This document shows, piece by piece, positions 28,196 through 28,623 of a stretch of 64,000 nt of DNA (positions are counted from its first letter, which is position 1; every line of letters starts with the position of its first letter). Source of the stretch: Escherichia coli (GTDB taxonomy: Bacteria; Pseudomonadota; Gammaproteobacteria; Enterobacterales; Enterobacteriaceae); assembly GCF_003334305.1 (NCBI RefSeq), contig NZ_QOWS01000001.1. One strand, 5' to 3'. The position numbers and the translations under genes were made by a program. The notes below the pieces were generated by a model. That model worked only from the letters and a program-made list of their open reading frames with translations, searched no databases and was not told the DNA's origin.

Positions 28196-28471
28196 ATGAA
28201 CAAAGAAAATGTGATTACCCTGGACAATCCGGTCAAGCGTGGTGAGCAGGTTATCGAACAGGTCACGCTGATGAAACCTAATGCCGGGACGCTGCGCGGT
28301 GTCAGTCTGGCTGCGGTCGCAAACTCCGAAGTCGATGCGCTGATTAAGGTGCTGCCGCGCATGACTGCACCGATGCTGACCGAGCAGGAAGTCGCCGCGC
28401 TGGAACTGCCTGACCTTGTGGCGCTGGCCGGTAAGGTGGTCGGTTTTTTGTCGCCGAACTCGGTGCAGTGA
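28196..28471 (+). CDS. E: tail assembly chaperone E (91 aa)
   Basis: 91 aa, P2 E size; contains a slippery T6G site near its 3' end. Confidence 0.85.
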   Translation: MNKENVITLDNPVKRGEQVIEQVTLMKPNAGTLRGVSLAAVANSEVDALIKVLPRMTAPMLTEQEVAALELPDLVALAGKVVGFLSPNSVQ

Positions 28472-28623
28472 CGTTTCCGAAAAATCTGTCGGTCGATGAC
28501 CTGATGGCGGATGTGGCAGTGATATTTCACTGGCCGCCATCAGAACTGTATCCCATGAGCCTGACCGAACTCATCACATGGCGCGAAAAGGCGCTCCGGC
28601 GAAGCGGAAACACGAATGAGTAA
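28196..28623 (+). CDS. E': tail assembly chaperone E+E' (programmed -1 frameshift product)
   Basis: A -1 slip on TTTTTTG (28445..28451) gives an extension …FPKNLSVDDLMADVAVIFHWPPSELYPMSLTELITWREKALRRSGNTNE ending at TAA 28621..28623, translated by hand; the stop overlaps the T start codon. Confidence 0.75.

What the first reader, a model, noticed from the sequence alone, without database searches (positions are those of the whole stretch)
28440..28623. Conserved programmed -1 frameshift site giving tail chaperone E+E'
A TTTTTTG slippery heptamer at 28445..28451 lies 18 nt before the E stop. Hand translation of the -1 frame from the slip site gives a 58-codon extension with no stop until TAA at 28621..28623, which overlaps the T start codon. 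This matches the E/E' arrangement of P2 and its lambda G/GT analogue and supports an intact, probably functional tail module.
Basis: partly seen in the sequence, partly recalled or inferred. Interest (0 to 1): 0.3.

Follow-up and report, generated by a model that had tools for sequence, protein, structure and literature searches.

The report
Known P2 tail-chaperone frameshift site
This is the well-known programmed -1 ribosomal frameshift that lets phage P2 make two tail-assembly chaperones (E and E+E') from one gene start, sitting here in an intact-looking P2-type prophage of E. coli; it is real but ordinary.

Summary
The slippery heptamer T_TTT_TTG lies at 28444..28450, not 28445..28451. It is in the right register of gene E (28196..28471) and 18 nt before the E stop. 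The -1 frame then runs 57 sense codons to TAA 28621..28623, inside the first codons of the tape-measure gene T (ATG 28616).

The predicted 142-aa fusion differs from P2 gpE+E' at one residue. The DNA differs from P2 at 9 of 428 positions, and the P2 reference record annotates the frameshift at the homologous site.

The fusion carries Pfam Phage_TAC_7 in frame 0 and Phage_P2_GpE in frame -1. In 18 divergent Peduoviridae-type loci, and in 80 closer viral contigs, a canonical X_XXY_YYZ heptamer sits at the same place. It is mostly TTTTTTG, but also TTTTTTT, TTTTTTC, AAATTTT and GGGAAAG. The -1 frame is always open to the tape-measure gene.

No stimulatory RNA structure follows the site closely. 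A strong hairpin 50 nt downstream (28501..28543) lacks covariation support.

The window holds a 30.9-kb P2-type prophage (att cores 2279 and 33121) with all essential P2 genes full length.

Verdict: already known, interpretation supported, low interest.

The parts
27621..28139 (+). FII, major tail tube gene (upstream neighbour)
   Evidence: TIGR01611 tail_tube, E=1.3e-49. 100% identical to P2 FII.
28196..28471 (+). Gene E, the frame-0 product (91 aa), tail assembly chaperone
   Evidence: ORF and translation. 98.9% identical to P2 gpE. Pfam Phage_TAC_7 at residues 7-85. phrog_103.
28432..28434 (+). TAA stop in the -1 frame, 3 codons upstream of the heptamer; it sets the 5' limit of the E' reading frame
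   Evidence: It makes the E' frame reach 37 nt back into E, as described for P2 in PMC3931495.
28444..28450 (+). Slippery heptamer T_TTT_TTG (P-site TTT 28445-47, A-site TTG 28448-50)
   Evidence: Same offset (248) in E as in P2 and Wphi. Conserved in 18 divergent and 80 close loci. The chance of a slippery spelling, given the amino acids and local codon usage, is 0.0007-0.10 per locus.
28450..28623 (+). E' segment, read in the -1 frame after the slip (57 codons plus TAA)
   Evidence: Pfam Phage_P2_GpE at fusion residues 104-139, E=2.3e-21. phrog_1756 matches from fusion residue 82.
28196..28623 (+). E+E' fusion CDS, join(28196..28450, 28450..28623), 142 aa
   Evidence: One residue different from P2 gpE+E'. 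Same length as the 142 aa stated for P2 in PMC3091744.
28616..31063 (+). Gene T, tail tape measure; its first 8 nt overlap E'
   Evidence: ORF. 98.5% identical to P2 gpT over 814 aa.
28501..28543 (+). Strong RNA hairpin inside the E' coding sequence, 50 nt 3' of the heptamer; role unproven, probably not a frameshift stimulator
   Evidence: MFE -25 kcal/mol, z -4.9 against dinucleotide shuffles and z -3.0 against synonymous recoding. Kept only in the P2/186 clade. No compensatory pair among 21 distinct sequences.
28433..28439 (+). Shine-Dalgarno-like AAGGTGG, 4 nt 5' of the heptamer; possible pause element or a by-product of coding
   Evidence: Sequence. Variants such as CAGGTGG, AAGGTGA and GAGGTGG are seen in many relatives (contexts). 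Not tested further.

Best explanation
This is the E/E+E' recoding site of a P2-type (Peduovirus) prophage. Most ribosomes translate E (91 aa) to TGA 28469-71.

A minority slip back one nucleotide when the P and A sites hold TTT 28445-47 and TTG 28448-50 of T_TTT_TTG. The tRNAs re-pair with TTT-TTT, decoding resumes at GTC 28450-52, and 57 further codons are added. The result is the 142-aa E+E' protein, ending at TAA 28621-23 just inside gene T.

The shared N-terminal TAC domain is expected to coat the tape-measure protein T. The E' (GpE) domain is present only on the rare fusion. By analogy with lambda G/GT, it is expected to recruit the tube protein FII so that the tail polymerises to the length set by T.

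Shown here: the sequence anatomy, near-identity to P2, the domain content of both frames, and conservation of slip site and frame. Inferred: that slippage actually occurs in this prophage, its efficiency, the tandem two-tRNA mode, and the chaperone roles.
For: - Heptamer register, spacing and the open -1 frame are as described.
- 9 of 428 nt and 1 of 142 aa differ from P2, with the heptamer at the same offset.
- The P2 and Wphi records annotate E+E' as a joined CDS with a -1 translational frameshift.
- PMC3091744 states that in P2 the -1 shift occurs at TTTTTTG and gives a 91-aa E and a 142-aa E+E'. PMC3931495 states that P2 E' lacks a ribosome-binding site and reaches 37 nt back into E. Both hold here.
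- Pfam Phage_TAC_7 lies in frame 0 and Phage_P2_GpE in frame -1.
- tblastn of the fusion finds 418 phage records; 401 cover at least 80% of it, and every listed place at that coverage is two joined pieces.
- All 18 divergent loci carry an in-register X_XXY_YYZ site 5-22 codons before the E stop. The -1 frame is open for 52-71 codons to the tape-measure region. Heptamer spellings vary: TTTTTTG, TTTTTTT, TTTTTTC, AAATTTT, GGGAAAG.
- All 80 IMG/VR loci keep the site.
- Codon choice at the site is far from chance.
- The first possible start codon in the -1 frame lies 6 to 40 codons after the heptamer. In many relatives it falls inside the conserved GpE domain.
- The locus sits between the tube and tape-measure genes.
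Against: - There is no expression data for this prophage.
- The primary experimental paper (Christie et al. 2002, PMC135442) is not held, so it is cited only through secondary papers and database annotation.
- No stimulatory structure lies at the usual 5-9 nt spacing: z = 0.05 for the first 50 nt. Efficiency therefore cannot be predicted.
- RefSeq/PGAP annotates E' as a separate 51-aa GTG-initiated CDS in an E. coli strain identical over this 601-nt stretch.
Confidence: 0.95

Rival explanations
1. E' is an independent small gene, translated from GTG 28468 as a 51-aa protein with no frameshift. This is how RefSeq/PGAP annotates it.
For: An E. coli genome identical over this stretch carries a separate CDS, 'GpE family phage tail protein', starting at that GTG. 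Several phage records also list a free-standing E' CDS.
Against: - There is no Shine-Dalgarno sequence at a usable distance; GGTG lies only 2 nt upstream.
- The position of the first start codon in the -1 frame is not conserved. It lies +6 to +40 codons after the heptamer and often falls inside the conserved domain, for example in Arsenophonus and Vibrio MAR.
- The phrog_1756 profile aligns from fusion residue 82, upstream of the GTG.
- The slippery heptamer is conserved against codon-usage expectation.
- P2 E' is reported to lack a ribosome-binding site (PMC3931495).
Confidence: 0.02
2. The fusion arises by transcriptional slippage. RNA polymerase adds an extra U in the T6 run, giving an mRNA in which E and E' are in frame.
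For: The site is a homopolymer run. Assemblies with T7 at this place encode the fusion in one frame, so a +1 U transcript would give the same product apart from Phe in place of Leu at the junction.
Against: - Relatives carry non-homopolymeric heptamers at the homologous place: AAATTTT in P88_4B11 and GGGAAAG in PHL101. These support tRNA re-pairing but not polymerase stuttering.
- From general knowledge, productive slippage by bacterial RNA polymerase needs longer runs, about 8-9 or more. Six T is short.
Confidence: 0.02
3. The shift is ribosomal but involves one tRNA. Peptidyl-tRNA-Phe slips from TTT 28445-47 to 28444-46 while the A site is empty, waiting for the uncommon TTG decoder. The junction would then read ...GFF-VAE... 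instead of ...GFL-VAE...
For: The -1 frame translation from 28444 reads FFVAEL, so the product is plausible. Smp131 (TTTTTTT) and Vibrio MAR (TTTTTTC) have F-F in frame 0.
Against: All variants of the site in relatives keep the full X_XXY_YYZ pattern needed for two-tRNA re-pairing, including AAATTTT and GGGAAAG. The P2 and Wphi joined CDS features, as rebuilt and seen in protein P0002, read GFLVAE.
Confidence: 0.12
4. Chance coincidence: a T-run near the end of E and a fortuitously open -1 frame, with no recoding.
For: TTTTTTG is not enriched in the window. Long open -1 frames after slippery heptamers are not rare in a naive scan.
Against: The -1 frame encodes a recognised Pfam domain. Site and frame are conserved down to about 35% protein identity and in hosts of 42-67% GC.
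Confidence: 0.005

Closest known systems
Bacteriophage P2 genes E and E+E' (FETUD tail operon; Christie et al. 2002, J Bacteriol 184:6522)
   Same: Same heptamer at the same offset. Same lengths (91 and 142 aa). Same 37-nt back-extension of E' into E and same 8-nt overlap with T. 9 of 428 nt and 1 of 142 aa differ.
   Different: Nothing of substance: one N/S substitution at residue 29, and 8 of the 9 substitutions leave the protein unchanged.
Phage 186 orf51/orf52 (gene H) and other Peduoviridae E/E' pairs (KS5, Smp131, Fels-2-like RE2010, phiCTX-like Sirocco)
   Same: Homologous proteins at 35-80% identity. The site lies at the end of the TAC gene between the tube and tape-measure genes, and the -1 frame encodes the GpE domain.
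   Different: The heptamer spelling varies (TTTTTTT, TTTTTTC, AAATTTT, GGGAAAG). So do the distance to the frame-0 stop (5-22 codons) and the linker length.
Lambda G/GT tail assembly chaperones (Levin, Hendrix & Casjens 1993; Xu, Hendrix & Duda 2004, 2013, 2014)
   Same: Same logic and position: a -1 shift near the end of the gene before the tape-measure gene. A rare fusion carries an extra domain that binds the tube protein. The product ratio is about 30:1, and neither product is in the virion (PMC5009743).
   Different: The heptamer here is TTTTTTG; lambda's, from general knowledge, is G_GGA_AAG, the spelling seen in PHL101. Christie et al., as reported in PMC3931495, describe no amino-acid sequence similarity between the P2 and lambda pairs. 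I ran no direct lambda comparison. The tail is contractile rather than non-contractile.
E. coli dnaX -1 frameshift (A_AAA_AAG with upstream SD-like element and downstream hairpin)
   Same: Tandem slippage on an X_XXY_YYZ site in E. coli. A Shine-Dalgarno-like sequence lies 5' of the site here too (28433-39).
   Different: There is no hairpin at 5-9 nt. The SD-like element is only 4 nt from the heptamer; from general knowledge the dnaX spacing is about 10 nt. No Rfam frameshift family matches.

Membership tests
P2 gpE / gpE+E' tail assembly chaperone pair (Pfam PF10109 Phage_TAC_7 + PF06528 Phage_P2_GpE) | Frame-0 product homologous to P2 gpE (Phage_TAC_7 domain) | tested here: met
   98.9% identity to P2 gpE over 91 aa. 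PF10109 at residues 7-85, E=1.6e-11. phrog_103, E=2.6e-45.
P2 gpE / gpE+E' tail assembly chaperone pair (Pfam PF10109 Phage_TAC_7 + PF06528 Phage_P2_GpE) | -1 frame extension encodes the GpE domain | tested here: met
   PF06528 at fusion residues 104-139, E=2.3e-21. The E' amino-acid sequence is identical to that of P2.
P2 gpE / gpE+E' tail assembly chaperone pair (Pfam PF10109 Phage_TAC_7 + PF06528 Phage_P2_GpE) | E' has no translation start of its own and reaches back into E in the -1 frame | tested here: met
   The -1 frame is open from 28435. The only start-like codon is GTG 28468, with no SD at a usable distance. The start position is not conserved in relatives. This matches the description of P2 in PMC3931495.
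Conserved tail-assembly-chaperone frameshift of long-tailed dsDNA phages (Xu, Hendrix & Duda 2004) | Located between the major tail (tube) gene and the tape-measure gene | tested here: met
   FII 27621-28139 (TIGR01611), then E/E', then T 28616-31063.
Conserved tail-assembly-chaperone frameshift of long-tailed dsDNA phages (Xu, Hendrix & Duda 2004) | Two products share an N-terminus; the longer one is made at low frequency and both are needed for tail assembly | not testable with these tools
   Needs protein detection and genetics. Reported for P2 and lambda in the literature.
Conserved tail-assembly-chaperone frameshift of long-tailed dsDNA phages (Xu, Hendrix & Duda 2004) | Tail assembly chaperone fold | tested here: inconclusive
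Canonical -1 programmed ribosomal frameshift site | X_XXY_YYZ heptamer in the frame-0 register | tested here: met
   T_TTT_TTG with codons TTT 28445-47 and TTG 28448-50.
Canonical -1 programmed ribosomal frameshift site | Heptamer conserved beyond what protein coding requires | tested here: met
   18 of 18 divergent loci and 80 of 80 close loci have an in-register slippery heptamer. The per-locus chance given amino acids and codon usage is 0.0007-0.10.
Canonical -1 programmed ribosomal frameshift site | Stimulatory RNA structure 5-9 nt downstream (common, not obligatory) | tested here: not met
   The first 50 nt downstream fold no better than shuffles (z 0.05). The only strong hairpin starts 50 nt away. 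PMC3091744 reports that no such structure is present in the P2 E+E' gene. This feature is optional, so membership stands.

The most novel reading that the evidence does not exclude
The 43-nt hairpin at 28501..28543 is a 10-bp plus 6-bp stem inside the E' coding sequence. It is more stable than all 500 synonymous recodings. Earlier structure screens of BCC relatives covered only 60 nt downstream (PMC3091744). It could be a functional cis-element of the P2/186 clade. Together with the SD-like AAGGTGG just 5' of the heptamer, it might tune frameshift frequency from a distance, or set the translation rate or stability of the E'/T junction mRNA.
Probability: 0.07. Interest if true: 0.35.

Novelty: already known. 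Interest (0 to 1): 0.07.

Why it matters
As biology it adds nothing new. The P2 E/E+E' frameshift was described in 2002 and is the myovirus counterpart of lambda G/GT.

Its practical value is for annotation. It marks the prophage at 2279..33148 as a P2-type element with a complete tail operon, likely to be inducible. It also shows that the current RefSeq annotation of the same sequence splits E' off as a free-standing 51-aa gene instead of a joined frameshift CDS. About 1,550 of the 5,426 complete E. coli genomes in the collection carry this stretch at 95% identity or more.

Tried and rejected
- **Primary paper.** Christie et al. 2002 could not be read (DOI and PMC135442 not held). I used secondary statements instead.
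- **Naive statistics.** The heptamer count and the length of the -1 frame after in-register heptamers do not single out the site. I rejected them as evidence either way.
- **NCBIfam.** There is no model for E, E' or the fusion.
- **Rfam.** No family matches in 28300-28700.
- **The search for related loci with the 18-sequence alignment.** It failed for lack of a conserved stretch. A 4-sequence alignment worked but returned mainly close relatives.
- **Downstream stimulator.** Nothing is significant in the first 50 nt. The 4-5-bp hairpin starting about 1-3 nt after the heptamer is too close and too weak to act. Its region is dual-coding (the -1 frame reads VAELG), which may account for its sequence conservation.
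- **The 28501-28543 hairpin as a conserved structure.** It is absent from distant relatives and has no compensatory changes in the clade that keeps it. I did not accept it as functional.
- **Fold search.** No convincing solved homologue was found.
- **Rival mechanisms.** Independent initiation, transcriptional slippage and chance were considered and rejected (see the rival explanations).

Full report
**Observation**

The window has ggt ttt ttg tcg at 28442-28453.

The ORF 28196..28471 (91 aa...KVVGFLSPNSVQ*) has codons GGT 28442-44, TTT 28445-47 and TTG 28448-50. The heptamer is therefore in the X_XXY_YYZ register needed for tandem -1 slippage. It lies 18 nt before the TGA at 28469-71.

Reading from G28450 in the -1 frame gives 57 sense codons (VAELGAVTFPKNLSVDDLMADVAVIFHWPPSELYPMSLTELITWREKALRRSGNTNE) and then TAA 28621-23. 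The next gene starts at ATG 28616, so the two overlap by 8 nt (ATGAGTAA).

The -1 frame is closed by TAA 28432-34 three codons before the heptamer. The E' frame thus reaches 37 nt back into E.

Taken alone, the heptamer is not remarkable. There are 25 copies in the window against 18.8 +/- 4.2 expected. A crude scan finds other in-register heptamers with long open -1 frames, mostly artefacts of spurious ORFs lying over real genes. The case rests on context and comparison.

**Identity**

Bases 28100-28700 match 74 phage records at 95-99% identity, all P2-type (Peduovirus; Escherichia, Yersinia and Salmonella phages). They also match 1,585 of 5,426 complete E. coli genomes, two of them at 100%.

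Against the P2 reference genome, the 428-nt E/E' stretch has 9 substitutions. The heptamer is at the same offset, and the fusion protein differs at one residue, N29 against S29.

The P2 record annotates E (19430..19705), a joined E+E' CDS (19430..19857, '-1 frameshift; essential tail protein') and a 'site of -1 translational frameshift' at 19685, next to the heptamer at 19678-84. Phage Wphi is annotated the same way.

PMC3091744 states that in P2 the shift occurs at TTTTTTG and yields a 91-aa E and a 142-aa E+E'. Those are the lengths found here. [quoted passage not shown] All of this is true here. The primary paper (Christie et al. 2002) was not available to me.

**Protein content**

The fusion carries Pfam Phage_TAC_7 (residues 7-85, frame 0) and Phage_P2_GpE (104-139, frame -1). 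It also matches PHROG tail families for each half. NCBIfam has no model for it.

**Comparative test**

tblastn of the fusion against 50,697 phage records finds 418 records. In 401 of them one place covers at least 80% of the fusion. Every listed place at that coverage is two joined pieces, as expected for two reading frames.

I fetched 18 loci spanning 35-80% protein identity: 186, Yersinia, Klebsiella, Salmonella RE2010 and SEN5, Burkholderia KS5 and Milagro, Stenotrophomonas Smp131, Pseudomonas Sirocco, Halomonas, Arsenophonus, Aeromonas, P88, Vibrio MAR, Acidovorax, Mannheimia PHL101 and Ralstonia.

- In every one that I could parse, an in-register slippery heptamer sits 5-22 codons before the stop of the E homologue.
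- The -1 frame is open for 52-71 codons and encodes the conserved ...DDxMADIAxIFHW...WRE...RSG motif up to the tape-measure region.
- The heptamer is TTTTTTG in 13 of the 17 parsed relatives, and Ralstonia also has it by direct search.
- It is TTTTTTT in Smp131, TTTTTTC in Vibrio MAR, AAATTTT in P88_4B11 and GGGAAAG in PHL101.
- Given the encoded amino acids and each locus's codon usage, the chance of a slippery spelling is 0.0007-0.10 per locus. This includes hosts of 63-67% GC, where a T6 run is very unlikely.

All 80 IMG/VR contigs with 80-100% identical proteins keep the site and a 57-58-codon extension. The one shorter reading (36 codons) presumably comes from L024, whose contig ends inside E'.

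The switch between different canonical heptamers at one position points to ribosomal slippage, not polymerase stuttering on a homopolymer. The first start codon in the -1 frame wanders from +6 to +40 codons after the heptamer, often inside the conserved domain. That argues against independent initiation of E'.

**RNA context**

The 50 nt after the heptamer fold no better than shuffled controls (z 0.05). With the first four bases removed, they fold worse. This agrees with the published statement that the P2 E+E' gene has no such downstream structure. No Rfam family matches.

A strong hairpin does exist further on, at 28501-28543 (CUGAUGGCGG...CCGCCAUCAG enclosing CAGUGA-UAUU-UCACUG). Its z-score is -4.9 against dinucleotide shuffles and -3.0 against 500 synonymous recodings.

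It is kept in P2, 186, Kp4886-2 and Yersinia YenM_06.16-2 but not in more distant relatives. Among 21 distinct sequences of that clade there is no compensatory pair, and the counts equal the shuffled controls.

It starts 50 nt from the slip site, outside the range of known stimulators. I record it as unexplained, not as part of the mechanism.

An SD-like AAGGTGG (28433-39) lies 4 nt 5' of the heptamer and recurs in many relatives. It also encodes the conserved K/E-V-V residues, so I draw no inference from it.

**Surroundings**

The window carries a P2-type prophage bounded by 28-bp direct repeats at 2279-2306 and 33121-33148. The left repeat is identical to the P2 attP core and the right differs from it at one base. 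The prophage lies between yegS/yegR and yegQ, and the right repeat overlaps the 3' end of the CyaR sRNA gene.

Every essential P2 protein aligns full length as one segment at 94-100% identity. This covers Q, P, O, N, M, L, X, Y, K, R, S, V, W, J, FI, FII, E, T, U, D, ogr, int, C, cox, B and A. Gene I aligns at 82%, and the nonessential lysA, lysB and lysC align full length too.

The tail-fibre gene H diverges after about residue 400. P2 gene G gives no hit in the window; in its place, 25687-26097 encodes a different tail-fibre assembly protein. The accessory genes fun(Z), tin and old are absent.

**Verdict**

The finding is real and correctly interpreted, with a one-base coordinate slip. It is a textbook feature of P2-like phages. 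Novelty: already known. Interest: low.

Noticed in passing
window 28501..28543: A very stable hairpin (10-bp outer stem and 6-bp inner stem, about -25 kcal/mol) lies inside the E' coding sequence, 50 nt downstream of the slip site. It is more stable than all 500 synonymous recodings. It is kept only in the P2/186 clade, and no compensatory changes were found.
   Followed up: partly
window 28433..28439: A Shine-Dalgarno-like AAGGTGG lies 4 nt upstream of the heptamer and contains the -1 frame stop TAA 28432-34. Similar (C/A/G)AGGTG(G/A) motifs occur at the same place in many relatives. It could be a pause element or merely the codons for conserved K/E-V-V.
   Followed up: partly
L004 20369..20524 (= window 28468..28623): RefSeq/PGAP annotates E' as a separate 51-aa GTG-initiated CDS ('GpE family phage tail protein') rather than as a joined frameshift product. 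All 15 E. coli genomes listed carry the same two separate features; the coordinates were checked only in strain A7.
   Followed up: partly
L104-L109 (T4 at the slip site) and L110-L112 (T7): Some public assemblies have 4 or 7 T's instead of 6, which hard-wires E and E' into one ORF (GFVAE or GFFVAE junctions). The T4 form recurs in 11 contigs; the six shown come from SRA runs with adjacent accession numbers. One of the three T7 assemblies (L111) also has fragmented neighbouring genes. These could be sequencing errors or defective prophages.
   Followed up: partly
window 8531..10105 and 10175..11059: A two-gene PD-Lambda-5 anti-phage defence system occupies the slot where P2 carries old/tin. 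PD-Lambda-5_A scores E=6e-168, and PD-Lambda-5_B, a Dam-like methyltransferase, E=3e-121. P2 orf91 is truncated next to it.
   Followed up: partly
window 2279..2306 and 33121..33148; 33125..33210 (-): 28-bp direct repeats bound the prophage (30.9 kb); the left one is identical to the P2 attP core and the right one differs from it at one base. The right copy overlaps the 3' end of the CyaR/RyeE sRNA gene next to yegQ.
   Followed up: yes
window 24008..25687 and 25687..26097: The tail-fibre gene H matches P2 only over its first ~400 residues (59% identity). It contains 2.6 tandem copies of a 132-bp unit (24542-24879) and a glycine-rich C-terminus. P2 gene G gives no hit in the window; downstream of H, 25687-26097 encodes a different tail-fibre assembly protein (phrog_188). 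P2 fun(Z) is absent. This looks like a host-range cassette exchange.
   Followed up: partly
window 47329..48134 (-) and 63154..63192 (+): There are three tandem Sib antitoxin RNAs, at the chromosomal position where strain A7 annotates three Ibs-family toxin genes, and a JUMPstart element further on.
   Followed up: no
fusion protein from window 28196..28623 (model m9962d19fda63): The E+E' fusion gives a confident AlphaFold model (pLDDT 89.5, pTM 0.78). It has no convincing solved structural relative and no PDB relative by sequence, so no solved structure for this chaperone family turned up in these searches.
   Followed up: partly
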